DNA of 64,000 nt from Candidatus Methanomethylophilaceae archaeon (GCA_944320495.1 CALUHR010000013.1:416001-480000), one strand, 5' to 3'. Shown: positions 880 through 62,332, numbered from the stretch's first letter. Notes: a model not told the origin generated them from the letters alone. Numbers and translations are program-made.

Positions 880-2427
880 TCGCAGTTTGAGCAGTTTATC
901 CGGGTTCGCGGCCCGGAGTATGAGGGGTTCCAGCCCTCCGAATGCGTCCGGGAGTGCGAAGCTCCCTCCGGCGGTGTCGCACGGCACGTACACCAGCCCC
1001 TTGACGCTGGGCTTGCTCAGCTTCAGCTTGGAGTGCGTCTGCGAGCACTGGGTCAGGTACATCTCCACCAGCCTGGACGCCTCGGTCCTGGTGCAGAGCG
1101 GGATGAACACGGTGCGGGATCCAGGGGACCCCTCGGATGCGGAGTCGGCGAGGCGGCCGATCCCCGCGCTCCCGCTGATGCTGTGCTCCTCGCCTTTGAG
1201 GCGGTTCAATATGGAGCTTTCGGGAGCCGCTGCGAAGATGTCGGTCAATCCCGAGCGGGGGTCGGACAGCGCCCTCTCGAACACCGTGAACACGGCGGGG
1301 ACCATCAGGTCCTCCTTCACGACCACGGACTTCTTGGAGAGGAACGAGCCGGTGGTGAAGCTGTACTGCAGGTCCACGTCCCAGAAGGGCATCAGCGAGT
1401 CGCCTCCGCCCTGGCATATCGGTATCGTGCCGCCGTTCTTGGCCGCCACGACGTCGTTGACGTAGCCGTAGAGCTCGAAGTCGCGGGCCTCCGACGTCAG
1501 CAGCCTGTTCCATTGCGGGTTGTCCGGGTATTCCGCGGAGGCGACCCCGTTGATCAGCGTGAGCGTCTTGAGCGGGTCCTTGGACGTGCCGTTGTTGACC
1601 ATGTCGACCACGTTCTTCAGCGTCCTGGTCTGGGAGATCTCCATGTCCACAGCCCTGAGGGTCACGGCGAGCCTGGGGTTGGAGAGCAGCTCCCTCTTCG
1701 CCGCCTCCAGCTCGGAGAGCCCCTCCTCCGCCTTGGCGGAGCATCCGAGGGCGTCCCCGTTGAGCACCATGTCGGATGCAGCGCAGACGTCGGACAGCGC
1801 CCTGAGCCTGGATGCGAGCGGCTCGTACCCTTCGCACTTCGCCATTGCGTCCGCCGATTCGAGGAAGTTCTTCGACATGATGGCGAAGCGCCCGGGGGAC
1901 CCGGTCTCGGTCAGCAGCTTGGAGTTGTTCAGTATCATCGCATAGGCGTTGGCGATGCCCTCGCCGGTGACGATGGATTTCCTGCTCTCGTCGTCCACGG
2001 CCATGGGCTCGACGCTCTTCAGCCTGGCCTGGAACTCGAAGGCCTGCGTGGAGGTGTGGTCGGACCTGACCGGCTCCCCCTTGCTGAACGGGAGCACGAT
2101 GAGCGGCGAGGCGATCACGGAGTTCAGCGCGAAGCGGTACTCGTTGATCTCCACGTCCACCCTGGGCTTGACGCTGTTGACGTATATGCTGTGCCTGGCG
2201 ACGGGGTCCACGTTGTCGACCGACCCCATGGCGAAGCCGCCGGGGATGGTCTTGGCGATCCAGCTCTGGATCTGCCCCATCATCTGCTCCATGTACTTCC
2301 TGGCGTCCAGCCTCTGCTGGGTGGTGCCGCAGCTGGGGCAGGTTATGTAGGGGGAGTCGGACTCTATGTCCTTCCTGTCGAGGGGCGCGCCGCAGTACTT
2401 GCAGCGCAGCTCAACCATGTCGTCCAT
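880..2427 (-). CDS. N-terminal double zinc-ribbon protein (515 aa, CGA-terminated)
   Basis: CKYC...CPSC at the N-terminus. The first in-frame CGA (880-882) lies 8 nt before the next ATG and overlaps its GAGGT SD; the ORF track runs on to a TAG at 832. Confidence 0.75.
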
Positions 2428-2428
2428 C

Positions 2429-3358
2429 TTATCTTCCCATCCTCGCGAAGGCGATCTGGCTCTGCAGCGCGGCGATCTCCGCCTGCAACCTGGCCTCCAT
2501 CGCCATCATCTCCCTCATGGACTGCTGGTAGTACTCGTTGGCGATCTCGTCGGAGCGGTTGGAGATCGCGGTGTAGCATGCCTTGCAGACGTAGATGTGG
2601 TCGTACCCCTCCCTGGACGCCGCGGCCGCAGAGGCCTTGTCCTCCAGGGACTTGGGCGCCTCCGCGGGGGCCGCGTAGAAGTTGATGCCCTCCCCGGTGG
2701 CGATCCTGCCGCATATCCAGCAGGTGCAGGTGGCGGAGTACTCCCTCACCCTGCGCAGGTTCTCCTCGGCGGACTGCCCGTTCTGCTGCCTGTACCCCGC
2801 CGCGATCTGCTGGTACTCCGCGGCCTGGGACGGATTCTCCCCGACGGTCGCGTCCGCCATGATCTCGTATGCCAGGGCCATGAGGTTGTAGAACTCGGTG
2901 GTCCCGGTGACGGAGGTGTCCTTCCTGAAGAGCGAGAGTGCGATCAGGCTGCGGTCGCCGATCCTGGACTGGAAGTCCTGGGCGAGAGCTATGAGCTGCT
3001 GTCCGCGCTCCATGCCGGACGTCCTGTCGCCGGATGAGAGCAGGGTCATCTTCCTGATGGTGAGCTCGCACTCCGTCTTCATCTCCGCCACGTCGATGGT
3101 CTCCAGCCCGAACTGGACGGTCGTGGCGGAGGTCAGCCTCTCCAGGGTCGTCAGGAGGTTCTGGTATGCCTGCATGCTGCTGAGCCTGTCCGACAGGTCG
3201 ATCAGGGCGACCTGTACGGCCGCGACGTCGTCCGTGCCGCCCTCCTTGTCTATGGATTTGATGAGGTAGTCGCGGGCCTTGTCGAACTCCCCTCTCTTGA
3301 TCAGCTCCTGGCTGTCATCGTAGAGCTCGTCGCCGTTCTTGAATAGCTTGAAAGCCAT
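2429..3358 (-). CDS. helical-repeat (TPR-like) protein with C-terminal Cys zinc finger and coiled coil (309 aa)
   Basis: Helical N-terminal region, CTCWIC...CKAC motif, heptad-rich C-terminus; TAA stop 1 nt before the next ATG. Confidence 0.75.
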   Translation of the reverse strand: MAFKLFKNGDELYDDSQELIKRGEFDKARDYLIKSIDKEGGTDDVAAVQVALIDLSDRLSSMQAYQNLLTTLERLTSATTVQFGLETIDVAEMKTECELTIRKMTLLSSGDRTSGMERGQQLIALAQDFQSRIGDRSLIALSLFRKDTSVTGTTEFYNLMALAYEIMADATVGENPSQAAEYQQIAAGYRQQNGQSAEENLRRVREYSATCTCWICGRIATGEGINFYAAPAEAPKSLEDKASAAAASREGYDHIYVCKACYTAISNRSDEIANEYYQQSMREMMAMEARLQAEIAALQSQIAFARMGR

Positions 3359-3581
3359 GTCCCATCTCCCTGGTTGAGTATGCGCGTCGCATGATTAAAT
3401 GGGTGGTCCTGGCGTTCCCCGAGCCGCGGGCCCCGTCCGCGAAGCATGGATTCCGACAACATCTCTGTATGGCCGAATATGATTAGACGTTTAGTCTATT
3501 GAATCGAATGACCTTGGATGAATGTCTAATCTTTTCAGATAATCACAACGTATAAATCAAAGATATCCCCAATCCGGGTTC

Positions 3582-21964: not shown

Positions 21965-22291
21965 TCGCTCGGGAAGGCGCTCGATCCTGAAGATGACGGG
22001 TCTCGTCCCGTCGTTGCAGCAGGCGATCATGACGCCGTCGTCCCTGTTCCACCCGTCCATGATGGCTCCGCCGTTCATGGCGGCGTAGACGTACCTGCTG
22101 ATGCAGCTCCATGCCTCCGAGCAGAACCTCCCGTGCATCAGATGACGCCATTCGTCGGGGGTGACGATGAACTCGTCGCCCGGGTGGAATAGCGAGCACG
22201 GCCCCGTCTCGGGGTTCGACAGATACTCCTTCTGGAGGTCATCGTAGCATCTGCATTCGAGGACGGTGATCCTCACGTTGTGCATCGTCAT
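21965..22291 (-). CDS. TIGR04076-family protein, copy B (108 aa, CGA-terminated)
   Basis: Paralog of the adjacent copy (CSEAWSCISRYVY, ACCNDGTRPVIFRIERL). ATGA overlap with copy A; the first in-frame CGA follows RIERLPE, just before the terminator. Confidence 0.8.
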
Positions 22292-27627: not shown

Positions 27628-28005
27628 TCGAAGGGCCGATGGGGGAACCCGAGGGATGACGCGGTCCACCTCGTTCTTCGCCCATGGCACGGTGTCCAGA
27701 TACTCATCGCGGTCGAAGGACAGCTCGTCCGGCAGCTCCGAGAACAGGCGGGACTCCATCTCGCAGTCCTCCCTGACCTTCCTACCGAGGATCGCCGCGC
27801 ACACGTCGCAGTACCCGATGTCGCGGGTGGCCACAATCTCGATCTCGTACCCCGCCTCCTCCAGGAACTCCCTCGCGGCGGCCTGGGCGGAGGTCTCTCC
27901 CTCCTCGACGTGTCCGCCGGGCATCTCCCAGCCCTTCCTGCGCCTGTGCCAGACCATCAGGAACCTGTCGCCGTCGAAGGCCACGGCGTAGGCGGTCCTG
28001 CCCAT
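27628..28005 (-). CDS. NUDIX hydrolase (CGA at 27628-27630; TGA two codons later at 27619)
   Basis: GGHVEEGETSAQAAAREFLEEAG Nudix box. Confidence 0.9.
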
Positions 28006-30322: not shown

Positions 30323-30693
30323 CGAGGATACGCGGGGTGGACGTGGACTTCATAGACGCCTTCAACGAGGCGGCCCGTTCCACCTACCCCGACGAGTTCC
30401 TCTGCATGCACCGCGAGATCGACGGCATCATCAGCGAGATGGTCATGCTGCCAGGGACGGTGTACGGGGACTCGCACAGCTTCCTGAACCAGTGGATGGC
30501 CCCGATAGACTACAGTCTGGCGGGCTCCGCCCACTCGCACCCGGGGTACTCGAACGAGCCCTCTGATGCCGACAAGGACTTCTTCAGGAACACAGGGGGC
30601 ATCCACTTCATAACGTGTCAGCCATACGACAGGACCAGCTGGCGCGCCTATGACTCCTACGGGGAGCCGGTAGACATCGAGGTCATCTACCGA
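30319..30693 (+). CDS. JAMM/MPN+ metalloprotease (124 aa, CGA-terminated)
   Basis: PDEF...AHSHPGYSNEPSDAD JAMM motif. ATGA overlap with the upstream gene; the CGA at 30691-30693 abuts the stop of the convergent gene. Confidence 0.85.
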
Positions 30694-32774: not shown

Positions 32775-33038
32775 TCACAGCGAGATGAGGATCCCGACGA
32801 CCGTTATGGCCAGCAGTATGCCGGCGACCATCGCCCAGAACATGTCCCTCTCCTTCAGGAGGCAGGCGAGGCTGACGATAATGCCCGCGAACGGGGAGAG
32901 TATGAGTACGAGGATGCCCGCGTGGAGGAGGCCGTCCCCCATGCCGAGGAGCTCCGCGGCGATGCCGGCGACCATCAGGACCATCCCGATCATCACGACC
33001 GCACGGAGCATGAGCGCGGTGGACTTGTTCAGCTCCAT
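32775..33038 (-). CDS. small 3-TM membrane protein (DUF1634-like partner of TSUP exporter, 87 aa)
   Basis: MELNKSTAL...GILVLILSPF, hydrophobic; its ATG overlaps the CGA of the upstream gene (CGATG). Confidence 0.75.
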   Translation of the reverse strand: MELNKSTALMLRAVVMIGMVLMVAGIAAELLGMGDGLLHAGILVLILSPFAGIIVSLACLLKERDMFWAMVAGILLAITVVGILISL

Positions 33039-33859
33039 CGGAGCACCCCCGCCGCCTGTAGAAGGACGATCGTCGCCATCACGAACACGACGACGGAGAA
33101 GTACTTCCTGAGATGCCTGGCGTTGATCCTGCGCGTCACCACGGTCCCGGCCAGGGACCCTAGGAACGCACCTATCGCGATCCCGGCGGCGAACTCCAGG
33201 AGGACCTGTCCGCCGAGGAAGTAGGTGATCGCTCCGGAGAAGGCGGTGATGCCGATCATGTAGCTGCTGGTGGCGCTGGCCGTCTTCATCGGCACGTGCA
33301 TGTACAGGTTCATCAGTGGGACCTTGACCATCCCGCCGCCGACGCCCGTCATGGAGGATATCATCCCGGCGACGGTGCAGAGTGCCATCCCACCTCTGAC
33401 GTGTTGGAGCTCGTACGAGACGTCCTCCCCGCTCGCCTCGTCCCTGTAAGAGAAGGCGTACCTGCCCCTTGCGTCCTCGGATGGGTGGACTATCGTCTCG
33501 GGGCTCCTGATCATGCGGTATCCGCTGAAGTAGACGATGATGGCGAAGATCACCATGAGGACCCATTCCTCGAGGTACGTCGCGACTATCGCCCCGATTA
33601 TCGCTCCTGTCGCCGTGGTTATCTCGAGAAGGAGGCCCAGGCGCACGTTCGAGAGGCCCTTGTCCACGTAGACCGTGGACGCTCCCACGGATCCGGCTAT
33701 GATGCCTATGAGGCTGATCGCCACCGCCTCCGTCGGCTCCAGACCCATGAGGAGGAGGACGGGCACGAAGATGATGCCTCCACCGAGGCCGAACAGGGCC
33801 CCGAGTATGCCGGCTCCGAGGCCGATGACCATCAGCAGAACCAGCAGCAGCGGATCCAT
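33038..33859 (-). CDS. sulfite exporter TauE/SafE (TSUP) family protein (273 aa, CGA-terminated)
   Basis: GALFGLGGGIIFVP, SSMTGVGGGMVKVP and ASATSSYMIG motifs. Confidence 0.9.
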
Positions 33860-37019: not shown

Positions 37020-38576
37020 TCGGTCCGAGTAGCTCCTCCTCATGGATGATGACGGGACTGGGATGCCCAGAGATTCGAAGATGACCTTCTGGTCATACGT
37101 CGGAGGATTGACGCGGTACTCGTCGTTCACTCTGAACGCTTTGATGTCGGAAGCCGCGGAGATGACGTCGAGATAGTTTATGCGACCGGCCAGTTCCGAC
37201 CCTTCCACCATGCCTATGAGGGCCGATTTCATTATGGATGCGAAGAAGTCCCCCATCATCGAAGCCAATGCCGTCTCGTTCGACGGAAACAGGGACGCCC
37301 CGCCCTGAAGGTCCGTCCTGAAGATGGTCCAGTCCTGCTGATAACGGCCTGATTTCCAGATGATCCCAAGCATCTCCTCGATGGAGTACCTGGAGTTTGA
37401 CACTATGACGGTTGCGCCGAGGCACAGTTCCTCCGACAATATGGCTTCCGCGTTACGTTCGACGTCTATGCCTCCGTCCGGGCCTCTGTTCAGCGTGAAG
37501 AACCGCATCAGATCGTCGAATCCGTAGTCTGCGATGATGCGGTCCTCGATCGATGGGCTCCATCTCATGCGCGATACGGTGTCCTCGAACTGTCTTAGAT
37601 TGGAATAGAACTCGACGGTGCGCTCGTCATGCGCTCTCATGTCAACGACCAGGTACACGTCGCAGCGGTTCAGTCCGAACGTCCTCTCCAGACGGAGAAT
37701 CTTGTACAGGGACCTGTCATAAACGACCGAGTCGTATCTCACGATGTCGCGGTTCTCCAGCAGCAGTTCCCTGGCGATGGGGGACGAGGAACCGACATCC
37801 ACGATGGTACTGTAGTCGGTCCCCAGGTAGTGTTCGATCTCGGACTCCGTGTATTCCCTTTCGCTCATGCAGAACGTGACGTCATTCACACCCATCCGGT
37901 CCAGATCCGCCGAGATGGCCTTCATCGTGCTGCGGTCTGCGCCGGAGTAGTTCGCCATGCGGAAGTAGAATGGCAATCCGGATTCGATGCTCAGTCCGAG
38001 GAACAGGCTCTTCGACGGAAAGTGGTCGAAGGATGCATGGCTGCTCGTGCCGAACAGCTTGTAGATGCTGATGGGCTCCTTGAGGACGTCTATGTCGTAC
38101 ACGATGGCAGATTTGCCCTTCGCAAACCTGGCGAAGAATTCGTGACGGTGGCGGTATACGGTGATCAGCAGGTTCATGTATCCGTGGAGGGACATCGGCG
38201 CAGAGTCCAGGGGCATGTCGAAGAACTCCGGCAGTATCGAGGACCTGATGTTCTGCGTGGACTGCGTCGGGGGACAGCAGCGGATCGCCCTACTGACGCA
38301 GTGGGAGAAGAGGTATTTCGAACAGTCCGTGCCGTACACATCGCACAATGCATCCCAGAGGCCGCAGCGTCTGCAGACGTTGAACATGAGATAGTACTCG
38401 CCCATGTCCTTGCTGTCGACGTCCACCGATTTGGACGATACGAGGTTGCCGTCCTTGTCGCATTTGCCGATGTACTTCCTCTTCTGTCTGGAGCGCTTCT
38501 TCTCAGGGTCCCACTCGGCCGTCACCTCATAGAGGTAGTAGTTGTCGCGAACCTTCTGGACCACGTTATAAGACAT
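37020..38576 (-). mobile_element. IS1634-family transposase-like ORF, catalytically degenerate (518 aa, CGA-terminated)
   Basis: N-terminus YYLYEVTAEWDPEKKRSRQKRKYIGK and overall layout resemble archaeal IS1634/IS4 transposases. The third Asp and the catalytic Glu region appear diverged, and no terminal inverted repeats were seen. Confidence 0.6.
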
Positions 38577-40553: not shown

Positions 40554-41717
40554 GTGGAAACCGTGGGCGCGTACTCCGACGGGATGGGGAAGCCGGGTCT
40601 GGCGGCCGTGATGACCCTGTACTTCTTCAGTCTGGGGTTCTGCATAGTGACCCCTGCGATGGCGAAGTTTGCCGAGGCCTTCCCGTCCCAGGAGTACGCG
40701 CTCATAAACTCCCTTCCGACGATCTTCATAGCGGCTGCAGGGATAGCCTTCGGATTCGTGGCCGGCAGAAAGGTCGGATACAGGACGATGGCCGTCGCAG
40801 GTTCAGCTCTGTGCCTGGTCGCCGGCATAGCTCCCGCGTTCATCGACGATTTCGGGCTCATCCTCGTATGCCGCTCCATCGTCGGCATCGGGGTCGGGCT
40901 GCTCATACCGATGGCGAACGCCCTGGTCAACGGCTCCTTCGAGGGGGATGCCAGGGCAAGGTTGCTGTCTGCAGGCAGCCTGATGCTCAACCTGGGCGGC
41001 ATAGTCCTGCAGTCCGTCGGAGGGTTCCTGGCAGACGTCGGATGGCAGACGACGTTCTACGGCTACCTCCTATTCATCGTGGCGCTGGTGATGTCGTTCA
41101 TGATCCCCGATGTCCGCAGCGACGGACCCATGGGGTGGAGGTGCCTGGACCGCCGGATGGCCGTCGTGGTGGCCCTCTTCATGGTTTACGGCATCCTCCA
41201 GTTCTCGGTCATGCAAAACACCTCCGAGCTGTTCGAGCTCCGTGGCGCGGGAGGCGCATCCGCATCAGGCCTGGCACTGTCGGTTTTCACCGCTCTGGGG
41301 TGCGTCGGCGGGATGCTGTATTCACGCATAAGGTCGGTCTCAACCCGTGCGGTGTTTCCCCTGCTGTGGGCGGCAACGGCGGTGGGCGCGCTGATACAGG
41401 CGGTCTCCGAGAGCGGAGCGCTGATGACCGCAGGGCTGGCGGTGTTCGGATTCGGCTTCGGAATGATCATCCCCGCCTTCGTCGATTGGGCAGGGGTCAT
41501 GAGCAAGCCGTCCACCGTCGCATTCGCCACGGCCCTGACGACATCCGGGCTCTACACGGGCAGCTTCCTCTCCCTGGTGTGGAGCGGGGTCGGCGATTCG
41601 CTGTTCGGGGAGCACCTGGTGTCGAATCTGTGGGCGGCGGTCGCTGTCGGTGCACTGCTGGCGGTCGTGTTCCTCCTCTATGACCCCCTGAGGTCCAGCT
41701 CCGATGGGAGGAGCCGA
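40554..41717 (+). CDS. MFS transporter (387 aa, CGA-terminated)
   Basis: About 12 TM helices and a GFVAGRKVGYR motif A. The CGA at 41715-41717 lies 4 nt before the next ATG. Confidence 0.85.
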
Positions 41718-41721
41718 GCGG

Positions 41722-42282
41722 ATGGACGCCGTCGAAGCAGCCGTGCGTTCGGTGCCAGGTCCGAACGTCACGTACGTGGGGTCGTTCGATCTGGCGGAGC
41801 ACCCGGTTAGGATAACGGAGGAGGTCCGCCGTGCCTGCGAAGCCAACTACTGCGGGCACTATGGGAGGAATCGGGCATGTCCTCCTCACGCACCGCCGTG
41901 CCAGACGTGCGCAGCGATGCTCTCGCGTTACATCAAGGTGATATTGATCAGGACGACGTTTGCACGCGACGGACCGTTCGACCTCGAAGGGATGGAGAGG
42001 GCGTCAGAGGCGCACGCGGGCTACTCCTTCGATGTTCGTAGGATGCTCCGGGGCATCGACGGGCTGGAATTCACGATGCTTGGGGCCGGTCCTTGCACCC
42101 ATTGCTCGGGACGCCCCTGTCCGGAGGATGGGTGCAGGTCGCCTCCCGATCGCATGTTCTCGATAGAGGCGTACGGCATCGATCTGACATCGTTCCTCGT
42201 CTCCAACGGCATTGACCGCAGGGGAGGAGACAGGGAGCAGTCGTACTTCTCGATGGTCTTCTACAACCCTCTGGAGCATCGA
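41722..42282 (+). CDS. DUF2284-like Cys-rich metal-binding protein (186 aa, CGA-terminated)
   Basis: CEANYCGHYGRNRACPP, LGAGPCTHC...CRSP and FSIEAYGID motifs; ends YFSMVFYNPLEH before the CGA. Confidence 0.8.
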
Positions 42283-43159: not shown

Positions 43160-43263
43160 GAGTATGACATATCGCAATCCGGCGTATATATTGGGAGGGG
43201 AAACGGATTATACCTGGGTCCGGCGGCATCGGGTTTAATACGCCGTCGGGTTTGAGGCGCCGC

Positions 43264-43677
43264 ATGGATACGCGCGTCCGGTATCTGGTTGTGCTCATCG
43301 CGTACGTGGCCATCGTGATAGTCGCTGGCACTGCGGTGACGATCAGGTTCACGGAGCTGGACGCCGTCGATTCGTTCTATTACGTGGTGCAGACCCTGTG
43401 GACGGTCGGCTACGGCGATGTCGTCCCGGCAGGACACGTCGGCAAGGTGATCACGCTCTGGCTGAACATCCTGGGGACGGTGGCCGTCCTCTCCGCGATC
43501 GGAATCGTCAGCGGCATCGTCCTGGACCGGTTCATGGACCGCCAGAGGAAGCTGGAGTCCGAGGCGTCGGAGCGCCGCAGGGAGATGCGCAGGGCCGTCC
43601 TGGCATGGGCCGACCGCAACGGCATAGACCGCTCCGAGATCGAGGGGGTGATTGGCGATGGTCCTAAGGAGCACCGA
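43264..43677 (+). CDS. minimal 2-TM potassium channel subunit A (137 aa, CGA-terminated)
   Basis: DSFYYVVQTLWTVGYGDVVP pore signature; no RCK domain. Confidence 0.85.
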
Positions 43678-44131
43678 TGCGGAGCTGCTGAGGTGGGTCC
43701 TCATCGTCGCCGTCGTCCTGGGCGCGTTCACCCTCATGTTCTCTCACGTGGAGGGGTGGGACCTCTTCGACTCGTTCTACTTCGTGCTCTGCACGTCCAC
43801 CACCTCCGGCTTCGGGGACGTCGTGGTCTCTCCGGAGAACAGGCTGCTGGCATCCGTCTTCATCATCGTGGCCGCCACCCTGGTCCTGTCCCTGGCCGCC
43901 AACGTGGGGCAGTGGATCATGGACTCGGTGGGCCGCAGGATGGCGGTAAGGAGGTTCAGGGGCGAGGTGGCGGATACGAAGCTCCGGCTGAGGGGCCTGG
44001 GTGCCGACACGTCGGACCTGGAGGCCGAGCTGGATCGCATCATGGAGGCCGGGAGCAGGGCCATGGGGGAGATGAGGGCCGATGAGCTCGATCTCGGTCC
44101 AGAGCTGGAGGGTCTCCGCAGGAGGCGCCGA
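43658..44131 (+). CDS. minimal 2-TM potassium channel-like subunit B (157 aa, CGA-terminated)
   Basis: DSFYFVLCTSTTSGFGDVV variant filter, followed by a coiled-coil tail. Confidence 0.78.
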
Positions 44132-45879: not shown

Positions 45880-46410
45880 ATGAGCGAGCTATCCGACGCA
45901 TTGAAGGAGTGCGGAGCGCTGCAGTTCGGCGAGTTCACCCTCGCCTCCGGCGCCAAGAGCGACTACTACATCAACATCAAGAAGGCCAGCACGGACCCGA
46001 AGGTCCTGGGCCTCATCGCCCGCCTGATGGCGGAGAAGGTCCGCGAGAACGGCATCGAGGCCGACAGGATCGCCGGCGTCGTGCTCGGGGCCGTGCCGCT
46101 GGAGGCCGCGCTGGCCCTGGAGACGGGCCTCCCGTTCGTCATGGTCCGCAAGGAGAAGAAGGACCACGGGACCGGGAAGCAGATCGAGGGCGACCTGAAC
46201 GAGGGCGAGAGCGTCCTGATGGTGGAGGACGTGGTCACCACCGCCGGGTCCTGCATCAAGGGCATCCACGTGCTCCGCGAGGCCGGTGCGGACGTGAAGT
46301 GGGTCCTCTCCGTCATAGATCGCGAGGCCGGAGGCGCCGAGGCCCTGGAGGCCGAGGGAGTGAGGTTCATCCCGCTCGTCAAGGGCTCCGAGCTCCTGGG
46401 TGAGAGATGA
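45880..46410 (+). CDS. pyrE: orotate phosphoribosyltransferase
   Basis: FTLASGAKSDYYINIK, VRKEKKDHG and VEDVVTTAGS PRPP-binding motif. Confidence 0.96.
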   Translation: MSELSDALKECGALQFGEFTLASGAKSDYYINIKKASTDPKVLGLIARLMAEKVRENGIEADRIAGVVLGAVPLEAALALETGLPFVMVRKEKKDHGTGKQIEGDLNEGESVLMVEDVVTTAGSCIKGIHVLREAGADVKWVLSVIDREAGGAEALEAEGVRFIPLVKGSELLGER

Positions 46411-47747
46411 GGCCCGATCCCGACTGCAGGCTCTGCGGGCTCTGCGAGGGCCGCACGCAGGTCGTCTACCCGGACGGGAACCCCGGCAACGGGATCATCT
46501 TCGTCGGGGAGGGGCCGGGCGAGAACGAGGACCTGAAGGGCAGGCCGTTCGTGGGCAAGTCGGGGAAGATCCTGGAGGACATGATGGCGGCCCACGGCTT
46601 CGGCCGCGCCGACGTCATGATCACCAACACCGTCAAGTGCAGGCCGCCTGGCAACAGGGACCCCCTCCCGGAGGAGATGGCCGCCTGCCGCCCGTTCCTG
46701 TTCTCCGAGCTGGAGGATGCCAGGCTGGTCGTCGGCCTGGGGAAGTCGGCCTGCAGGAACCTGATGGGGTACGAGGGGCCGATGTCCCAGATAGTCAACG
46801 TTCCCGTGACGATAGACATCAACGGCCGCGAGGTCCTGTTCATCCCCACGTACCATCCGGCGGCGACGATATACAACCGCAACTCGCGTGCCGCCCTGGA
46901 CGAGACCATGAGGGTGGTGTCCCAGTGGCTCGGGAGGCCGGAACGGCAGGAGCCGAAGACCATGAGGTTCGGCGGGTTGATGCTGGACATGGACGGGACC
47001 GTCTACAAGGGCGGCGTCCCGATCCCTGGGGCCAGGGAGCTCATATCGTTCCTGAGGGACCAGAGGGTGCCATTCGTCTTCCTGACGAACAACTCTTCCC
47101 ACCCGCGCTCGTTCTACGGCGACAAGCTCAGGCGCCTGGGCTTCGACGTCACCGACCGCGAGGTCCTGACTTCGACGATCGCGACCATAAGGTTCCTCCT
47201 CTCCCAGCGGATGGGCAGGACCGTGTACCCTGTGGCGGTGCCCGGGGTCGTCGACGAGCTCAGGGAGGCGGGCATCCCGCTGGTCGAGGAGGACCCGGAC
47301 ATCGTGCTGCTGACCTTCGACACGATGATCACCTACGAGAAGATCAACAGGGCGTACAGGTTCCTGAAGGGCGGGGCGGAGCTCATAGCCACGCACCCTG
47401 ACGACCTGTGCCCGACCGAGGACTCCTACGACATAGACATCGGACCGTTCATCAGGATGTTCGAGCAGATGTGCCAGACCACCGCGACGGTCATCGGGAA
47501 GCCGAACCGTCTGATGCTCGAGATGGCCGCCCGCGAGATGGGCGTCGACCCGGGCGAGTGCGTCATGGTCGGAGACCGCCTGTACACGGACATAGCGATG
47601 GCGCAGAACGCCGGCACGCAGTCGGTGCTGGTCCTCTCCGGCGAGACCGACGAGGGGATGCTGGAGGGCTCCGACATCCACCCGACGGCCGTGCTCGGGT
47701 CCGTCGCGGAGCTCCCAGAGCTCATACTCCAGTCATTCGACGATCGA
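46407..47747 (+). CDS. family-4 uracil-DNA glycosylase fused to HAD-IIA (NagD-like) hydrolase (446 aa, CGA-terminated)
   Basis: UDG motifs CRLC, GEGPG, PFVG, KCRPPGNR and YHPAA; HAD motifs DMDGTVY, LTNNSS, GKP and MVGDRLYTD. An internal ATG at 46962 is preceded by GGAG. Confidence 0.82.
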
Positions 47748-51531: not shown

Positions 51532-52401
51532 ATGGATGGGAACACAAGGATGGAGGATCTGGAGCAGCATCTGCTGTTCCACAGGGCGCTCGCCGACGAC
51601 GACGAGTCGCTCAGGAGGATAGGGGGATACATGGACATCCTCTCCCGGGCGGAGTCCGGGGAGAGGCTCCAGGACCCCGTGGACGAGTCGATCAGGGCCG
51701 TCTTCAGCCTGGTGCTGGAGAAGGGCATCGACCCCTGGGAGGTGGACCTCTCGGAGTTCGCCCGCATGTACGAGGCCAAGGTCTCCAGGGACAGCTTCGA
51801 CATGATCGTCGCGGGCAAGCTGCTGCTCATGGCATGGAGAATCCTGCGCATGCAGTCGGAGTCCACTAGGGCCAGGAGCGAGCCGCCGGTCGAGCCCGTC
51901 ATCGAGGAGGCCGACGACAGCTTCTTCTTCGAGGACGAGCCGCTGTACGTGCCCGAGGTCAGCTTCAGGGAGGCCTTCAGGAGGCAGACCGAGAGGCCCG
52001 TCACCGTGTACGAGCTCATCGACGCCTTCGAGGACGCCCGCAGGGACATCGATATCCAGCGCGAGCGCGAGCGCGTCCGCCGCGAGCTCAAGGCCAAGGA
52101 GCCCAAGAGGTTCGACAACAAGGCCCACGACGAGGACGACGAGCGCGACGTCGAGGCCGTGTGGAAGCGGATCGAGAGGCTCGGCACCGGGCAGATCGCC
52201 ATCCGCGACCTCTACACAGCCGACCTCCAGGAGAACCTCACCACCTTCGTGGCGGTGCTCCACCTGGTCAGGGACGGCAGGCTGGCCGTCTGGCAGGACG
52301 AGCTGCCCTACGGCACCATCTATCTGGAGATCAAGACGGACTGGTCCTCAGGGACCCTCGAGGACTCGCCCGGCCAGCTGGTGACCGAGGCGGTGAACCG
52401 A
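51532..52401 (+). CDS. scpA: segregation/condensation protein A, kleisin (289 aa, CGA-terminated)
   Basis: IDPWEVDL and C-terminal TFVAVLHLVRDGRLAVWQ motifs. The CGA at 52399-52401 lies 1 nt before the scpB TTG. Confidence 0.9.
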
Positions 52402-52929: not shown

Positions 52930-53011
52930 GATTGCGTATAAGCATTCGTCTCACACAATCATTTTGTGCAATCGGGTGTCGAAAGGCATCCGATTGCATA
53001 CATATTGCATA
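52930..53011. promoter_or_regulatory. four ATTGC(A/G)(T/C)A boxes upstream of the ABC operon
   Basis: gattgcgta (52930), inverted tgtgcaatc (52965), gattgcata (52992), tattgcata (53003). Confidence 0.4.
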
Positions 53012-53092
53012 AGGACAATTCCATATCGCTATCTATCCCGTCTGGACTACATATCCCTAAAGAAAATCCTTATATGGGTTCACGAGGGTGAG

Positions 53093-53176
53093 ATGAGCAT
53101 CATGACGGTGCCCTCTGCCGACGTAGATGCCGCTCCGAGTGCCAGTGCAGTCCATCGGGACCTGGAGGACTGCCGA
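53093..53176 (+). CDS. putative 24-27 aa leader ORF coupled to the ABC permease via CGATG
   Basis: ATG 53093 (or 53102) downstream of a CCTTATAT box reads MSIMTVPSADVDAAPSASAVHRDLEDC, then a CGA whose A is the first base of the permease ATG. Confidence 0.45.
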
Positions 53177-54822
53177 TGTCCCTCCTGAAGAAGATAGATG
53201 AGATATCCGGCAGCTACAAGGCGAGGAACGCCTGGCTGACGTTCGCCATAGTTCTCTTCATAGCGATCATCGTCATCCCCGCGATATTCGTAGTCACCAA
53301 GCTCTTCACGGAGTGGGACCTGGTCAGCGGGGTCCTGAACGATCCCGCGAGCATGGAGGTAATCGAGGGCGCGGTGTGGAACTCGTTCAGCATAGCGGCC
53401 ATAGTCACGGTCATCGACATCCTCGTGGGACTGCCGATGGCGTGGATCATGGTCCGCAGGGATTTCAAGGGCAAGAAATGGCTCGACACCCTGCTGGACA
53501 TGCCCCTGGCGTTCCCGACCGCCGTCCTCGGAATCTCGGTGGTCATGTTCTGGGGCGCCCCCGAGGGCATCACGATCCCGGGGCTGGGGCTGGACCTGTC
53601 ACCGTACGTGATGCTCCTGTTCCTCCACATCATATTCACCTATCCGTACATGGTCCGCTCCCTGTCCGGAATCCTGGAGCAGATCGACGTCAACTACGAG
53701 ACCGCGGCCATGACCCTCGGCGCTTCGAAATGGACCGCCGTGAGGACCATCACGATCCCCCTGTTCCGCGCCGGTCTCGCCACCGGGTTCATCCTGTGCT
53801 TCGCCAGGTCCCTGTCGGAGACCGGGGGCACATACATCGCCCTGACCATGATGGGCGTCGAGAGCACCTTCTTCACCGGGCCGTCGTTCATCAGCTGGCT
53901 GAAGTCCGACCCGACCATGGTCGACTCCGGGGACTACATGGGCGCCATGATCCTGATCAGCGTAGTCATGATCGTCCTGGCCCTGATCCTCCTCGTGGTG
54001 GTGAAGTGGATCATCGCGAGGTTCAGGATCCCCTGGAAGAAGGTCTGGCCGGAGATCGGCAGGAGCGTCAGCCGCGGCCCCCTCCCGAAGGTCAAGGACG
54101 TCATCACAGTCGTGTTCCTGATTATCGTGGTCCTGCTGCCCTCTTTCTACATATTCGCGTATCTGACGGAGCCGATCCCCGACATAGACTACGGGACGCT
54201 CCTGTCGTCCACCGGGGTGTCGTTCCTGGTTGCGGGCGTGGCCGTCCTCGTCGACCTCATCCTGGGCATCCCGCTGTCGCTCTACATCGCCAGGCACAAG
54301 GGCGGGAAGCTCGCCGGCATCCTGGACGGGCTGGTCAACGTCCCCCTGATCATCCCGACCACCGCGCTTGGATTCTCCCTGGCGCTGTTCTGGGCCAGCT
54401 TCGGTGCTGGGGACTCGATGGCCATCGTGCTGGTCATCCTCGGTCACATCTCGTTCACGTATCCGCTCGTGGTGAGGAACCTGGTGGGCGCGATAGAGGA
54501 GGTCAACCCGGAGTGCGAGGAGATCGCCATGACCCTCGGCGCCAAGCCCTTCCGCGCGTTCAGGACAATCCTCATGCCGATCATCAAGTCGTCCGTCGTC
54601 GCCGGATGCATCCTGGCGTTCACCAGGTCCCTGGGCGAGACGGGCGCGACCATCGCCATCAGCGACAGCGTCAGCACGGTCCCGATCTACATCACCAACC
54701 TGGTCCAGGACCACATGTACACCGAGGCGGCGATGTGCTCCATCGTCCTGATCGCCATCTGCTTCGTGCTGATGATGGTCGTCAGGATGCTAACACACAG
54801 GAGGCAGGGTAGGGATGCCTGA
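53176..54822 (+). CDS. ABC transporter permease, two fused TMDs (Fe3+/molybdate/sulfate-like class)
   Basis: Two EAA-like loops (ETAAMTLGAS, EEIAMTLGAK) and FARSLSETG / FTRSLGETGA motifs. Confidence 0.9.
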   Translation: MSLLKKIDEISGSYKARNAWLTFAIVLFIAIIVIPAIFVVTKLFTEWDLVSGVLNDPASMEVIEGAVWNSFSIAAIVTVIDILVGLPMAWIMVRRDFKGKKWLDTLLDMPLAFPTAVLGISVVMFWGAPEGITIPGLGLDLSPYVMLLFLHIIFTYPYMVRSLSGILEQIDVNYETAAMTLGASKWTAVRTITIPLFRAGLATGFILCFARSLSETGGTYIALTMMGVESTFFTGPSFISWLKSDPTMVDSGDYMGAMILISVVMIVLALILLVVVKWIIARFRIPWKKVWPEIGRSVSRGPLPKVKDVITVVFLIIVVLLPSFYIFAYLTEPIPDIDYGTLLSSTGVSFLVAGVAVLVDLILGIPLSLYIARHKGGKLAGILDGLVNVPLIIPTTALGFSLALFWASFGAGDSMAIVLVILGHISFTYPLVVRNLVGAIEEVNPECEEIAMTLGAKPFRAFRTILMPIIKSSVVAGCILAFTRSLGETGATIAISDSVSTVPIYITNLVQDHMYTEAAMCSIVLIAICFVLMMVVRMLTHRRQGRDA

Positions 54823-55915
54823 GATTGTTCTGGACGACCTCTGCAAGGACTTCGACGGCCATGTCGCAGCCGACCATCTGAGCCTGACCATAGGCGATGG
54901 GGAGTACGTCTGCATCCTGGGTCCCACCGGGGCCGGGAAGACCACCGCCATGAGGATGATCTGCGGTCTCACGATCCCCGATTCCGGGAGGGTGCTCCTG
55001 GACGGGAGGGACGTGACCATGGATTCGCCGGACTCCAGGAACGCCACCATGCTCACGCAGACCTACGCGCTATTCCCGCACATGACGGTCTACAACAACG
55101 TCATGTTCGCCCCCAAGACCAAGGGGTGGCCGGAGGGCGAGTCGAAGCAGATCGTCAGGAGCATGCTGCACCTGGTGCATCTCGACCAGAAGGCGGACTG
55201 GGTCCCCGGGGAGCTATCCGGCGGCCAGCAGCAGCGCATTGCCCTCGCCCGCGCCCTCGCATCCGGGTCGAAGATCCTCCTGCTGGACGAGCCGCTCAGG
55301 GCGCTGGACGCGCGCCTGAGGATCGACCTGAGGAAGGAGCTCAGGTCCCTGGCCAAGGAGATGGGGCTCACGTGCATCCACGTCACCCACGACCAGGATG
55401 AGGCCCTGGAGATGGCCGACCGCATCGCCGTCATCCGCAAGGGCAGGATCATACAGTTCGGGACCCCCCGCGAGGTCTTCGAGAACCCGGCCACGCCGTT
55501 CGTGGCCAACTTCGTGGGCAGGTCCAACATATTCTCCGGCAAGGTCGTCGGAGCCGGCGACGGCAGGGTGTCCGTGGACGTCGGCGGGATCGTCCTGACC
55601 GGGAGGGGGGACGGGATGGAGCCCGGCTCCGAGGCGGTTCTCGCCGTCAAGGTCGGGTTCACCAGGCTCTCGGCGCCCGGGGAGGGGCCGGAAGGTTCCG
55701 TGAAGGGCATAGTGGAGCGCATCGTGTACGAGGGGGCCACCGTGACCGTGGAGGTCTCCGCCGGGTCGTTGGGCCTGGTTTCGTCCAAGCTGCCGAGCGC
55801 GAGGTTCGAGGAGTTCAGCGTCGGAGCCGCGGTCGATGTATCGTGGCCGGCCGACAAGGCGACGGTGTTCCAGATGCCCGCCGGCGGGCTCGAAGAGGAG
55901 ATGAGGTTGGACCGA
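54815..55915 (+). CDS. ABC transporter ATP-binding protein 1 (366 aa, CGA-terminated)
   Basis: GPTGAGKT, LSGGQQQR, LLLDEP and HVTHD motifs plus a TOBE domain; ends EEEMRLD-CGA, overlapping the next ATG. Confidence 0.92.
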
Positions 55916-60266: not shown

Positions 60267-60629
60267 TTGGACTCACTCTCTCATATTGATGAATGGCTCC
60301 GCGCCCATCAAGGCCGGAGGTTCACCCCCGTGAAGGAGGCGTCGATACGCATGTTCTTTGCAATCATGCTATCTGGACCACCCCTACGGGAGTATCTGGA
60401 TATTAAGATTACTGGGAAAACGGAATCTGGCACTCGTCTGGTGCCGGCATGTGTGGATCAGGTCCGGCGGATAGTTCGTCAGCGTCCCGCAGGGGTCTCC
60501 GGTCGGCGACGGCGGTGAGCACCACCGATGTGATCAGGTACGTGATTAGACCGGCGCCCGGGGATGTCCGCGCGGAGCCTTCCGGCTCCGTACGCGGTCA
60601 CGAGCCCGGGGTCGCGGTGGCGAAGCCGA

Positions 60630-61730
60630 TCGCCGCCTGCGCGGTCCGCCCTTGCCCTTGCCGCCCCTGTTCCTGGGCTTCCCCGACTTCTGCTTCTGGG
60701 GCTTCTTCGGCGGGTCGGGGTACCTCCTGCGGATGTCCTCCACCCTGGCCCTGAACTCCTCGTTCAGGCGGTCCCCGGCGAACTCGCCGTGGTACTCGTC
60801 GATCTTCGCCGCGATCAGGACCTTGCCGGCCAGCGCCCTGGCGACCTTCCCGCGCTGCCAATAGGGCGAGCGGTGGACCTCCGGGTGCTGGTAGATTATG
60901 CCGTGCTTGGGCCCCCTCTTGCCGGAGCGCATGCTCCTGAACATGGCCTTCTCGGCCCCGAGGAGCTGCACGGTGGAAGACGGGAGGGAGGCGAGCCTCT
61001 CCAGCCCTCCGGCGAGGGACACCAGCCTCGCGGCCAGCGGTCCTCCGAGCATGGCGCACATGTTGGGGCACGACTCCTCGACGATCCCCTGGATGTAGGC
61101 CTGGGTCCTGAGCTCGTCGTCGTAGAGGCGGTCGAGGGTGTCCGCCAGGTCCATGACCGCGCGGAGGTCCTCGTCATCCATGTCGGACCCGATGGACTCG
61201 ATGTCTATGCCGAGCTCCCCCATCACGGAGTCCCTGTCGCCGTATCTGGCGACGAGCTCGGCGTACCTCCTGTCGTGGGCGTAGTCCGCGAGCTCCGGGA
61301 AGTGCATCCCGTACCACTCGTGCAGCCTCTCGTTGTACAGGTTGATCGTCGCGATCTGGTCGTCCAGGCATCTGATGGCCTGGGCCATGCTGCGGTCCCT
61401 GGCTATGGGCTCGGAGGTCCTGAGCCTGCCGAGTCCCAGCATGACCTCGTGCATGAACGCGTCGTCGTATCCGTAGTCGGCGGCATGGATGAACGAGGAG
61501 TCGAACATCATGGGCTTCCCGAGCTCGGACTGCCTGCGCTCGGATACGGAGGGCTTCTCGATTCCGGCGACGAGCTCGCGCTCCTCGTCGAGCACGCCCC
61601 CGCGCTGCATCTCCGCCAGCTTCTGCGCCGCGGCCTCGGCGTCCTTGGGCATCAGCCTCTTGTCGAGGATCCTCCCGGACTTCTCGTCCACGAGGAAGCA
61701 CCCGAACCATTTCGTCACGAGCACCGCCAT
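60630..61730 (-). CDS. nop5: C/D box sRNP protein Nop5/Nop56 (366 aa, CGA-terminated)
   Basis: NERLHEWYGMHFPEL, LASLPSSTVQLLGAEKAMF and KHGIIYQHP motifs; the basic tail ends GKGKGGPRRR-CGA. Confidence 0.92.
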
Positions 61731-62332
61731 CGCATCACCCCCAGCTTCGCGAGCTCGGAGTCCGGGAGGTCCTCAGCATCGCCGCAGAGCAGCTGCAGGC
61801 GGGCCTGGAACTCCAGCTCCTCCATCCTGTCGAAGGCCTCCTCCAGGGTGGTCCCCTGCGTGAGGGCGCCGTGGCGGACCATGAGCATGGCCTTCGCGTC
61901 GGCGTGCTCGGCCACGGCGTCCACGAGCTCCTGGGTGCCCGGGGTCACGTACGGGACCTCCGCGACCCTCCCCAGGAGGAGCGCCCCTTCTGGGGTGAGG
62001 TTGCATCTGAGCCTCTCGCCCCGGACGGTGATCGCGATGCAGTTGAGCGGGTGGCAGTGGACCACCGCGTTCGTTCCGGGGTTGGCGCGGTACAGTGCCA
62101 GATGGAAGCCCGTCTCGATCGACGGCCTCCCTCCTGACACGACGGTGCCGTCCATGGAGACCTTCACCAGGTCCTCGGGGGACAGCAGGCTCTTGTTCCT
62201 GCCGGACGGCGTGATCAGGATGCCGTCGTCGATCCTGACGCTCATGTTCCCGCCGGCCGACACGGTGAGGTCCCTGTCGTACAGCATCCTGCAGGTCGCG
62301 ACCAGCGCCCCGCGAGCCTCCGCCTCGTCCAT
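61730..62332 (-). CDS. class II aldolase/adducin family protein (200 aa, CGA-terminated)
   Basis: GGNMSVR, ITPSG, PSIETGFH, VVHCHP and MVRHG motifs; the CGA overlaps the nop5 ATG (CGATG). Confidence 0.9.

What the first reader, a model, noticed from the sequence alone, without database searches (positions are those of the whole stretch)
880..61732. CGA acts as a stop codon throughout the window: candidate non-canonical genetic code or CGA-to-UGA recoding system
Seen in sequence: in 16 ORFs the first in-frame CGA lies at or next to the point where homology ends. Positions: 880-882(-), 21965-67(-), 27628-30(-), 30691-93, 33038-40(-), 37020-22(-), 41715-17, 42280-82, 43675-77, 44129-31, 47745-47, 52399-401, 53174-76, 55913-15, 60630-32(-), 61730-32(-). 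Reading past these CGAs gives low-complexity, off-bias tails, overlaps of tens to over 1000 nt, or false fusions. Stopping there gives normal operon spacing: a 1-nt overlap (x4), a 1-nt gap, a 4-nt gap, an 8-nt gap with SD, a 0-nt tail-to-tail junction. In a manual read of the Arg codons of GSIII, GltB, SMC, ProA/B, Nop5, PMMs, DHH, MtnA and others I found no internal CGA, whereas CGG, CGT and CGC occur internally. The other stops are about 39 TGA and 2 TAA. Established: archaeal aRF1 reads UAA/UAG/UGA, and CGA normally needs tRNA-Arg(UCG). I know of no described organism that uses CGA as a stop. Inference: possible mechanisms are loss of tRNA-Arg(UCG) plus an aRF1 tolerant at codon position 1, C-to-U mRNA editing that creates UGA, or termination by stall and rescue at an unassigned codon.
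Basis: partly seen in the sequence, partly recalled or inferred. Interest (0 to 1): 0.97.

Follow-up and report, generated by a model that had tools for sequence, protein, structure and literature searches.

The report
CGA used as a stop codon
In this chicken-gut methanogen (Methanoprimaticola-type, Methanomassiliicoccales) the arginine codon CGA is almost absent inside genes and ends about a quarter of them exactly where relatives have TGA, TAA or TAG, which would be a sense-to-stop code change not described for any cellular genome.

Summary
All 16 listed positions are in-frame CGAs at the point where coding signal, Pfam domains or orthologues end. The window has 39 TGA, 2 TAA and 14-16 CGA gene ends, and no internal CGA in about 19,500 codons. 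Genome-wide, 351 of 1,534 confident genes meet CGA before any standard stop. Sequence after these CGAs is as non-coding as sequence after TGA. Orthologues place TGA, TAA or TAG in the same column. The avoidance is frame-specific, which argues against editing or artefact. CGA has been purged from coding sequence in five genera of Methanomethylophilaceae, but it still aligns with Arg in Methanoplasma, genus g14 and other families.

A tRNA-Arg(UCG) gene lies 2.6 kb upstream of the window, with an anticodon-stem mismatch.

CGA is also not a pure stop. One in-frame CGA is invariant in the release-factor gene aRF1 (24 of 24 aligned species of the genus) and at codon 30 of rpl18e (53 of 54 family genomes).

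Best reading: CGA is a fourth stop codon, read in frame and probably by aRF1. It competes with a retained tRNA, and the CGA inside aRF1 provides RF2-like autoregulation. No protein-level proof exists.

Earlier follow-ups of this scan reached the same verdict on other windows of this genome.

The parts
880..882 (-). CGA terminator of gene 880-2427 (515 aa, weak zinc-ribbon N-terminus)
   Evidence: The coding segment ends 1 codon before the CGA. A 15-codon tail runs to TAG, and the next gene starts 8 nt downstream.
21965..21967 (-). CGA terminator of small gene 21965-22291 (108 aa, no Pfam)
   Evidence: The coding signal ends 5 codons before the CGA. The 213-codon tail runs antisense through gene 20801-21913(+).
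27628..27630 (-). CGA terminator of NUDIX gene 27628-28005
   Evidence: It is an in-frame CGA 2 codons before a TGA, so this site does not discriminate on its own.
30691..30693 (+). CGA terminator of JAB-domain gene 30319-30693
   Evidence: Prok-JAB ends 14 residues before the CGA. The 382-codon tail is antisense to gene 30694-32040(-). CGA|TCA abuts that gene's TGA with no gap.
33038..33040 (-). CGA terminator of TauE/SafE exporter gene 33038-33859
   Evidence: TauE covers residues 9-262 and the CGA is codon 274. CGATG gives a 1-nt overlap with the start of gene 32775-33038.
37020..37022 (-). CGA terminator of gene 37020-38576 (518 aa, no Pfam)
   Evidence: The coding signal ends 19 codons before the CGA. 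Homologues in relatives match residues 1-511.
41715..41717 (+). CGA terminator of MFS transporter gene 40554-41717
   Evidence: The coding signal ends 5 codons before the CGA. The closest relative, G078, has CGA 2 codons later. A DNA contig from an independent study matches 41468-41885 with no difference.
42280..42282 (+). CGA terminator of DUF2284 gene 41704-42282
   Evidence: The DUF2284 profile is matched to position 160 of 161 at residue 186, and the CGA is codon 193. The coding score is weak.
43675..43677 (+). CGA terminator of ion-channel gene 43252-43677
   Evidence: The coding signal ends 7 codons before the CGA. The 135-codon tail overlaps the next gene.
44129..44131 (+). CGA terminator of second ion-channel gene 43652-44131
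   Evidence: Read-through would fuse Ion_trans_2 (residues 18-90) with an Asn_synthase-type protein (185-314) that starts downstream.
47745..47747 (+). CGA terminator of UDG-HAD gene 46407-47747
   Evidence: Hydrolase_like ends at residue 436 and the CGA is codon 447. The coding signal ends 2 codons before it.
52399..52401 (+). CGA terminator of ScpA-like gene 51532-52401
   Evidence: In the orthologue column CGA appears in G000, G078, G009 and G004, and TGA in G006, G074 and G002. The next gene starts 1 nt later. Public gene calls read through, giving tails of differing length.
53174..53176 (+). CGA at the end of a doubtful 78-aa ORF (52940-53176), overlapping the ATG of the permease gene
   Evidence: There is no coding signal and a homologue was found only in G078. 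This is the weakest of the 16 sites.
55913..55915 (+). CGA terminator of ABC-transporter ATPase gene 54815-55915
   Evidence: All 15 orthologues end after ...EEEMRLD / ...ELRVE. The terminator is CGA in G000, G078 and G009, TGA in 9 genomes and TAG in 3, including four other families. CGATG overlaps the next start.
60630..60632 (-). CGA terminator of Nop5 gene 60630-61730
   Evidence: The basic tail ends ...PRRR-CGA in G000 and G078 and ...QNRR-TGA in G009. Others have TGA or TAA within a few codons.
61730..61732 (-). CGA terminator of class II aldolase gene 61730-62332
   Evidence: In the same column after ...KLGVM, G000, G010 and G001 have CGA. G078 (98% identical) and 12 other genus genomes have TGA and G076 has TAA; G003 and G012 end 1-2 codons later with TGA. 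CGATG overlaps the Nop5 start.

Best explanation
CGA works here as a fourth translation terminator.

Shown from sequence. Ribosome-frame CGA has been purged from coding sequence in a subclade of Methanomethylophilaceae: genus g1 (Methanoprimaticola, by contig titles), g9 (Methanomethylophilus), g10, g12 (Methanogranum) and g13. In the GC-rich genome of this window, TGA stops have drifted to CGA in about 23% of genes without loss of the gene end.

Inferred. The single aRF1 recognises CGA in the A site. CGA is a somewhat weaker stop than UGA and prefers U at the +4 position. It competes with a retained tRNA-Arg(UCG) that may be attenuated. That tRNA allows read-through as Arg at the only two conserved internal CGAs. 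One is in aRF1 itself, where it would give RF2-like negative feedback: much aRF1 means termination at its own CGA, and little aRF1 means read-through. The other is at codon 30 of rpl18e.
For: 1. In-frame CGA with coding signal on both sides: 15 of 786, against 411 of 1,146 for CGG. Within the best coding segments there are 64 CGA in 480,315 codons.

2. In 351 of 1,534 genes CGA is the first terminator, and 309 of these lie within -3 to +10 codons of the end of coding signal.

3. The 40 codons before a terminal CGA have mean LLR +0.48 and those after it -0.54. The values for TGA are +0.57 and -0.44. The tail to the next stop has a median of 21 codons, against 28 after TGA.

4. Orthologue end offsets have median 0 if CGA is a stop. 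Under the standard code they are +33 codons (G008) and +24 (G018). Where ends align exactly, the relatives have TGA in 19 cases (G008), or TGA in 6 and TAA in 4 (G018).

5. In outgroups CGA aligns with Arg of G000: G070 28 of 38, G016 65 of 152, G018 38 of 83. In the purged genera 0-2 CGA per 130-170 orthologue pairs fall in coding context.

6. The signal is frame-specific. NCG|A occurs at 0.87-0.95 and NNC|GAN at 0.96 of expectation.

7. Independent assemblies show the same usage, and an independent DNA contig shows C at 41715.

8. aRF1 has one CGA at NIKS+20 in 24 of 24 aligned genus species, with codon entropy 0 while neighbouring codons vary. It sits at -33 in g9, g10, g13 and G005, and at -47 in g12. 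Outgroups have 0-5 CGAs at scattered sites.

9. There is a +4 context effect: T follows 59% of terminal CGAs and 29% of TGAs.

10. The NIKS loop has Arg to Met at the human R68 equivalent in the whole family. R68 is part of the NIKS loop and is needed for positioning in the A site (PMC3632111).
Against: There is no protein, ribosome-profiling or RNA evidence; everything is comparative.

A tRNA-Arg(UCG) gene with a correct anticodon is present. An essential gene, rpl18e, keeps an internal CGA. Termination therefore cannot be absolute, and I found nothing that clearly separates read-through CGAs from terminal ones: +4 is C in aRF1 of the window's genus and G in rpl18e, and both bases also occur at terminal sites.

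The Arg-to-Met change after NIKS is also present in g11 and g14, where CGA is still Arg. It therefore does not track the trait exactly.

The rpl18e CGA also occurs in more distant genomes (64% identity), so it may predate the purge and have another cause.

No known eRF1 or aRF1 accepts C at codon position 1 (own knowledge).

In g9 and g10, CGA gene ends are rare and lie 2-5 codons before a standard stop. There, 'unassigned' cannot be told apart from 'stop'.
Confidence: 0.8

Rival explanations
1. CGA is an unassigned or 'hungry' codon. The tRNA-Arg(UCG) is barely expressed or defective. Ribosomes stall at CGA and are resolved without codon recognition by a release factor, for example through Pelota/ABCE1 splitting followed by peptidyl-tRNA hydrolase. 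Genes can then end at CGA without a true stop signal.
For: The tRNA-Arg(UCG) of the purged lineages carries an anticodon-stem mismatch: A31-A39 in G000 and C27-A43 in g9. The g14 tRNA, from a genus where CGA is still Arg, has a perfect stem. In g9, g10, g12 and g13 CGA is simply unused, with few or no CGA gene ends. CGA-ended genes have lower codon bias (0.476 against 0.565) and slightly more nearby backup stops.
Against: Rescue-based release at 23% of genes would be costly. A conserved CGA in aRF1 has a clear feedback logic only if aRF1 reads CGA. Terminal CGAs show a +4 base preference, as release-factor-read stops do. 72 CGATG junctions mimic TGATG termination-reinitiation coupling. The essential rpl18e keeps a CGA, so the codon is decodable.
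Confidence: 0.12
2. C-to-U editing of the mRNA converts terminal CGA to UGA, so the code itself is standard.
For: CGA differs from the dominant stop TGA by one C/T. TGA and CGA replace each other in orthologue columns. The RNA contigs laid here could not be read at the sites, so editing is not directly excluded.
Against: Editing cannot see the reading frame, yet only in-frame CGA is avoided. 8,915 NCG|A and 34,002 NNC|GAN occurrences inside genes lie at 0.87-0.96 of expectation. The 16 sites share no extended motif. Internal CGAs at conserved Arg in aRF1 and rpl18e would then be edited to stops as well.
Confidence: 0.04
3. CGA is an ordinary but very rare Arg codon, and the extended tails are really translated.
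For: The tRNA-Arg(UCG) is present. Public gene callers output the read-through proteins.
Against: The tails have non-coding statistics and run up to 736 codons through other genes. Their length differs among strains of about 87% identity or more. Orthologues stop at the CGA column. A rare codon would not sit at gene ends 20 times more often than inside genes.
Confidence: 0.03
4. The pattern is a sequencing or assembly artefact (T miscalled as C).
For: None found.
Against: The same usage appears in many independently assembled genomes (G078, G009, G010, G001, G004, G008). A DNA contig from another study is identical over 41468-41885. The pattern is frame-specific and has no sequence motif.
Confidence: 0.01

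Closest known systems
Sense-to-stop codes of organelles (NCBI tables 2, 22, 23: AGA/AGG in vertebrate mitochondria, UCA in Scenedesmus, UUA in Thraustochytrium mitochondria; own knowledge)
   Same: A former sense codon, an Arg codon in table 2, marks gene ends and is purged from coding sequence. For AGA/AGG a dedicated release factor (mtRF1) has been reported to act.
   Different: Those cases involve tiny organellar genomes with a handful of genes. Here a free-living archaeon with about 1,700 genes uses the codon at about 350 gene ends. It has a single aRF1, the cognate tRNA gene is retained, and internal sites are conserved.
Bacterial prfB (RF2) autoregulation through an in-frame UGA (own knowledge)
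   Same: The release-factor gene carries, near its 5' end, an in-frame copy of a codon that the factor itself would read. Expression of the full-length protein would therefore fall when the factor is abundant. The site is strictly conserved.
   Different: prfB needs a +1 frameshift with a Shine-Dalgarno stimulator. Here the frame continues through the CGA, so plain read-through by tRNA-Arg(UCG) would suffice. Feedback has not been shown.
Context-dependent stop/sense codons of ciliates and trypanosomatids (Condylostoma, Blastocrithidia; own knowledge, and PMC13092985 for 4-bp anticodon-stem tRNAs)
   Same: One codon is both sense and stop, and a tRNA with an altered anticodon stem is involved in some of these systems.
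   Different: There, standard stops became mostly sense. Here a sense codon became mostly stop. Archaea have no poly(A)/PABP positional cue.
CGA unassigned, 'possibly a stop', in two Njordarchaeales assemblies (bioRxiv 10.64898/2026.04.02.715157)
   Same: This is an archaeal lineage with no CGA in HMM-aligned positions, and the author raises the possibility of a stop.
   Different: It is a different phylum. It is coupled to CGG=Trp and tRNA-UCG was not found. No gene-end evidence was given. Methanomassiliicoccales are not mentioned.
Genetic code 34 (all TAG = pyrrolysine) in Methanomethylophilus and relatives (bioRxiv 10.1101/2024.09.30.615893)
   Same: It concerns the same family of archaea and shows that their termination system has already been remodelled.
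   Different: It is a stop-to-sense change. The paper does not mention CGA (0 occurrences).

Membership tests
Sense-to-stop codon reassignment | The codon is (nearly) absent from conserved sense positions. | tested here: met
   There is no internal CGA in the window. Genome-wide, 15 of 786 in-frame CGAs lie in coding context. In the purged genera, 0-2 CGA per 130-170 orthologue pairs do.
Sense-to-stop codon reassignment | The codon occupies the column of standard stops in orthologues. | tested here: met
   This holds for the ABC ATPase, aldolase, ScpA and Nop5 columns. Genome-wide end offsets have median 0 with CGA as a stop.
Sense-to-stop codon reassignment | Sequence downstream of the codon is not under coding constraint. 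| tested here: met
   Mean LLR is -0.54 after CGA and -0.44 after TGA. The tail-length distribution is close to that after TGA.
Sense-to-stop codon reassignment | The cognate tRNA is lost or disabled. | tested here: inconclusive
   The tRNA-Arg(UCG) gene is present and scores 55.7 bits on the Rfam tRNA model. It carries an A31-A39 mismatch, and expression and charging are unknown.
Sense-to-stop codon reassignment | A release factor recognises the codon, and proteins end there. | not testable with these tools
   This needs release assays, C-terminal proteomics or ribosome profiling.
Release-factor autoregulation by an in-frame stop (prfB-like) | A conserved in-frame copy of the factor's own target codon lies early in its gene. 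| tested here: met
   CGA is at NIKS+20 in 24 of 24 aligned genus species. It sits at -33 or -47 in the other purged genera, while CGA is otherwise purged.
Release-factor autoregulation by an in-frame stop (prfB-like) | A frameshift is needed to make the full-length protein. | tested here: not met
   The aRF1 frame is continuous through the CGA and encodes the conserved Arg of the ...RLK... segment.
Release-factor autoregulation by an in-frame stop (prfB-like) | Expression responds to the level of the factor. | not testable with these tools
   This needs reporter or profiling experiments.
C-to-U mRNA editing | RNA differs from DNA at the sites, and recognition is by sequence context rather than reading frame. 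| tested here: inconclusive
   There is no shared motif and no avoidance of out-of-frame CGA, which argues against editing. RNA contigs covering a site could not be read base by base.
Unassigned codon (codon-capture intermediate) | The codon is unused everywhere, including at gene ends, and its tRNA is absent. | tested here: not met
   351 gene ends in G000 use CGA, and the tRNA gene is present. The description may still fit g9, g10, g12 and g13.

The most novel reading that the evidence does not exclude
A cellular organism has turned the arginine codon CGA into a fourth stop codon read by its single aRF1. It keeps tRNA-Arg(UCG) only to read through two conserved 'sensor' CGAs. One of them lies in the release-factor gene itself, giving an archaeal analogue of RF2 autoregulation. 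GC pressure then spreads CGA over a quarter of all gene ends.
Probability: 0.5. Interest if true: 0.95.

Novelty: new variant of a known kind. Interest (0 to 1): 0.9.

Why it matters
Sense-to-stop reassignment is known only from mitochondria. A free-living archaeon with hundreds of CGA gene ends would add a new route of code evolution and would challenge the rule that eRF1/aRF1 requires U at codon position 1.

There is a practical consequence. Public gene calls for these gut methanogens read through CGA. The 398-aa and 409-aa read-through proteins are in the databases and the CGA-terminated forms are not. About a quarter of this genome's proteins therefore carry false tails or false fusions.

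The family also supplies the PylRS/tRNA pairs widely used for genetic code expansion. An aRF1 with widened specificity and a self-sensing codon would interest that field.

The conserved CGA in aRF1 makes the idea directly testable.

Tried and rejected
1. RNA check for editing. The runs are kept only as contigs. One RNA contig (X16 record 11, 41591-41818) spans site 41715, but the table of differences was cut, so I could not read the base. This is inconclusive.

2. BLAST with the 74-nt tRNA found only 3 relatives because it is too insensitive. The covariance model R1 gave a high-scoring hit of 81-89 bits, above the presumed GCG tRNA, in G061, G090, G029, G104, G050, G110 and G103 (g1, g10, g11, g12).

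3. The 'gene X' ending at CGA 63351 was rejected. Its homologues carry stops in that frame, and the region is coded on the + strand.

4. The 289-aa member P0026 of the ScpA cluster looked like a TGA allele, but it is a fragment with a different N-terminus.

5. The '1 TGA inside' flags for homologues of gene 42290-43177 are simply their real stops, not selenocysteine.

6. A looser coding threshold (0.2) inflated the count of 'internal' CGAs in this GC-rich genome through antisense ORFs. The stricter runs were used instead.

7. Frameshifting at CGA onto a hidden standard stop was rejected. Neither the -1 frame (NCG) nor the +1 frame (GAN) gives a stop.

8. In-frame TAG candidates in the window are all antisense artefacts.

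9. Literature searches for a CGA stop in Methanomassiliicoccales found nothing.

Full report
**What the window is.** It is G000:C13:416001-480000 of a 1.77-Mb, 14-contig genome with 62% GC. Contig titles of close relatives name Candidatus Methanoprimaticola and Methanomethylophilaceae. Public runs that hold the stretch are mostly chicken-gut or bird metagenomes from several studies. Arg is encoded almost entirely by AGG and CGC. TGA is the dominant stop.

**Observation.** All 16 coordinates are in-frame CGAs.
- I trained a codon log-likelihood model on the genome. With it, the best coding segment of each ORF ends 1-19 codons before the listed CGA.
- Pfam domains end just before the CGA. Read-through would join unrelated domains, for example Ion_trans_2 with Asn_synthase at 44129, or run for up to 382 codons antisense through neighbours.
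- A gene map that treats CGA as a terminator gives 39 TGA, 2 TAA and 14 CGA ends above threshold. It also gives the weaker DUF2284 end at 42280 and a doubtful 78-aa ORF at 53174. There is no internal CGA in about 19,500 codons.
- The in-frame CGA at 63351(-) is not a gene end.

**Genome-wide statistics.**
- Only 15 of 786 in-frame CGAs in good ORFs have coding signal on both sides, against 411 of 1,146 for CGG, 903 of 1,507 for CGT and 925 of 1,420 for AGA. 111 have coding signal upstream only.
- In 351 of 1,534 confident genes (22.9%) CGA comes before any standard stop. 309 of these lie within -3 to +10 codons of the end of coding signal.
- The 40 codons before such a CGA score +0.48 and those after score -0.54. 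The figures for TGA are +0.57 and -0.44.
- The in-frame distance to the next standard stop has a median of 21 codons, against 28 after TGA. There is only a slight excess of very short tails (KS p = 0.005).
- CGA-ended genes have lower codon bias (p = 5e-15). This hints that CGA is a slightly weaker stop, or one tolerated by drift.

**Orthologues.**
- I compared G000 with 400 kb of a genus member at 54% GC (G008) and 400 kb of a genome of another family (G018; 41.5% GC and a 1,931,651-bp single contig, a size I recall for Methanomassiliicoccus intestinalis). C-terminal end offsets have median 0 if CGA is a stop. Under the standard code they are +33 and +24 codons. Where ends align exactly, the relative has TGA or TAA.
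- In single genes from the window the column is exact. All 15 orthologues of the ABC ATPase end after ...EEEMRLD or ...ELRVE. The terminator is CGA in three genomes, TGA in nine and TAG in three.
- The aldolase ends ...KLGVM-CGA in G000, G010 and G001. It ends with TGA in the 98%-identical G078 and in 12 other genus genomes, and with TAA in G076; G003 and G012 end 1-2 codons later with TGA.
- ScpA has CGA in four genomes and TGA in three.
- Nop5 ends in CGA in G000, G078 and G010, and in TGA at the same position in G009.

**Distribution.** CGA is absent from coding context in g1, g9 (Methanomethylophilus; G042's 1,666,795-bp single contig matches the size I recall for M. alvus Mx1201), g10, g12 (Methanogranum) and g13. 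It still aligns with Arg in g14 (28 of 38), Methanoplasma g11, f5 (65 of 152), f6 and f7. CGA gene ends are frequent only in the GC-rich G000 (23%). They make up 3.5% in G008, some with tails of 20-42 codons, and 2% or less in g9 and g10, where a standard stop follows within 2-5 codons. This fits a clade-wide loss of CGA as a sense codon, followed by GC-driven TGA-to-CGA drift wherever CGA terminates well enough.

**Artefact and editing.**
- Many independent assemblies show the same usage.
- A DNA contig from a different study matches 41468-41885 without any difference.
- The sites share no motif.
- Avoidance is strictly frame-specific. 8,915 NCG|A and 34,002 NNC|GAN occurrences inside genes lie at 0.87-0.96 of expectation.
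- The signal is therefore read by the ribosome and not by a frame-blind enzyme.
- Direct RNA evidence could not be obtained.

**tRNA.** Its anticodon stem has an A31-A39 mismatch. Two g9 genomes have C27-A43. The g14 genome, where CGA is Arg, has a perfect stem. The sample is too small for a firm conclusion. Four-base-pair anticodon stems are common and their role is debated (PMC13092985).

**CGA is not a pure stop.** A few internal CGAs remain. Two of them are remarkable.
- aRF1 is a single copy in G000 and carries one in-frame CGA at the conserved Arg 20 residues after NIKS. This codon is invariant in 24 of 24 aligned species of the genus while flanking codons vary synonymously. In g9, g10, g13 and G005 the single CGA sits 33 residues before NIKS, at Y-R-G-(K/R)-G-T-E. 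In g12 it sits 47 residues before NIKS. Outgroup aRF1 genes have 0-5 CGAs at scattered sites.
- rpl18e has CGA at codon 30 (AAIW-R-D) in 53 of 54 family genomes, again with variable neighbouring codons. More distant genomes also have it, so this site may be older than the purge.
- These sites need read-through, which explains why the tRNA is retained. The aRF1 site is what an RF2-like feedback loop would look like. A first-stage note of this scan (e1-5716832) proposed the same for G000. The cross-genus conservation is new here.

**Release factor and context.** NIKS and YxCxxxF are intact. The family has NIKS-K-T-T-M-K where outgroups have NIKS-Q-G-T-R-K, and HQGGQSSV where outgroups have RMGGQSAQ. 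The Met replaces the equivalent of human R68, a NIKS-loop residue needed for placing eRF1 in the A site (PMC3632111). This change also occurs in g11 and g14, so it is at most permissive. Terminal CGAs prefer U at +4 (59%, against 29% for TGA). 72 of them form CGATG overlaps with the next start, which is half of all such junctions. About a dozen visible convergent gene pairs abut as the palindrome CGA|TCG.

**Literature.** I found no description of a CGA stop in Methanomassiliicoccales. The code-34 paper on this family does not mention CGA. A 2026 preprint speculates that CGA may be a stop in two Njordarchaeales assemblies, without gene-end evidence. Public protein collections hold the read-through forms of the window's genes and not the CGA-terminated forms.

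**Verdict.** The reading 'CGA terminates translation' is well supported by comparative evidence (about 0.8-0.85). The mechanism is inferred (about 0.5): aRF1 reads CGA in competition with a retained tRNA, with autoregulation through its own CGA. Stall-and-rescue at an unassigned codon is the main rival. Earlier follow-ups of this scan on other windows of this genome reached the same main conclusion.

Noticed in passing
G000:C2:86932-86934 (-), locus L049; outside the window: The aRF1 gene carries a single in-frame CGA at a conserved Arg (…SIAA-R-LKTYK). It is invariant in 24 of 24 aligned species of the genus. In other CGA-purged genera it sits at alternative N-domain positions (-33 or -47 from NIKS). 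It is a candidate autoregulatory site.
   Followed up: yes
G000:C13:191824-191826 (-), locus L051:825-827; outside the window: Codon 30 of ribosomal protein L18e (…AAIW-R-DVALRLE…) is CGA in 53 of 54 Methanomethylophilaceae genomes, with variable neighbouring codons. The reason is unknown. It also occurs in more distant genomes.
   Followed up: yes
G000:C13:413317-413390 (+), 2.6 kb before the window start: This is tRNA-Arg(UCG) with an A31-A39 mismatch in the anticodon stem. Two g9 genomes have C27-A43, and a g14 genome, where CGA is Arg, has a perfect stem.
   Followed up: partly
G008:C1, within 1-400000, minus strand (loci L009-L028): The hydrogenase small-subunit gene of G008 has CGA at the conserved Gly of the …YVP-G-CPP motif, where G000 has Gly. 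This could be an assembly error, a pseudogene or an unexplained decoding event.
   Followed up: partly
window 30691-30696, and for example G000:C3:57417-57422 and C13:504936-504941: Convergent gene pairs end back to back with no spacer, as CGA|TCA or as the palindrome CGA|TCG. The listing shows 52 terminal CGAs followed by TCG and about a dozen reciprocal pairs.
   Followed up: partly
G000:C8:55685-55687 (+), locus L052: An internal CGA lies in a flavodoxin-like gene (…GKTI-R-PFCTNEGSG…) in strong coding context. It aligns with Val in G018.
   Followed up: no
window 46407-47747 (+): A uracil-DNA glycosylase domain (residues 23-164) and a HAD phosphatase (192-436) lie in one open frame with no terminator of any kind between them. 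This is an apparent fusion protein.
   Followed up: no
window 62334-63950 (-): The in-frame CGA at 63351-63353 lies in the leader of MtnA. The apparent upstream 196-aa ORF is antisense to the + strand gene 63448-63999 and is not a gene.
   Followed up: yes
L217 (G076:C61), homologue of window gene 42290-43177 (DUF1638): An in-frame TAG aligns with Gln 273 of the G000 protein. It is a possible pyrrolysine or TAG-sense site, in line with code 34 reported for this family.
   Followed up: no
whole genome G000: CGA-ended genes have lower codon bias than TGA-ended genes (0.476 against 0.565). They also have a small excess of standard stops within 6 codons downstream, which hints that CGA is a somewhat leaky stop.
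   Followed up: partly
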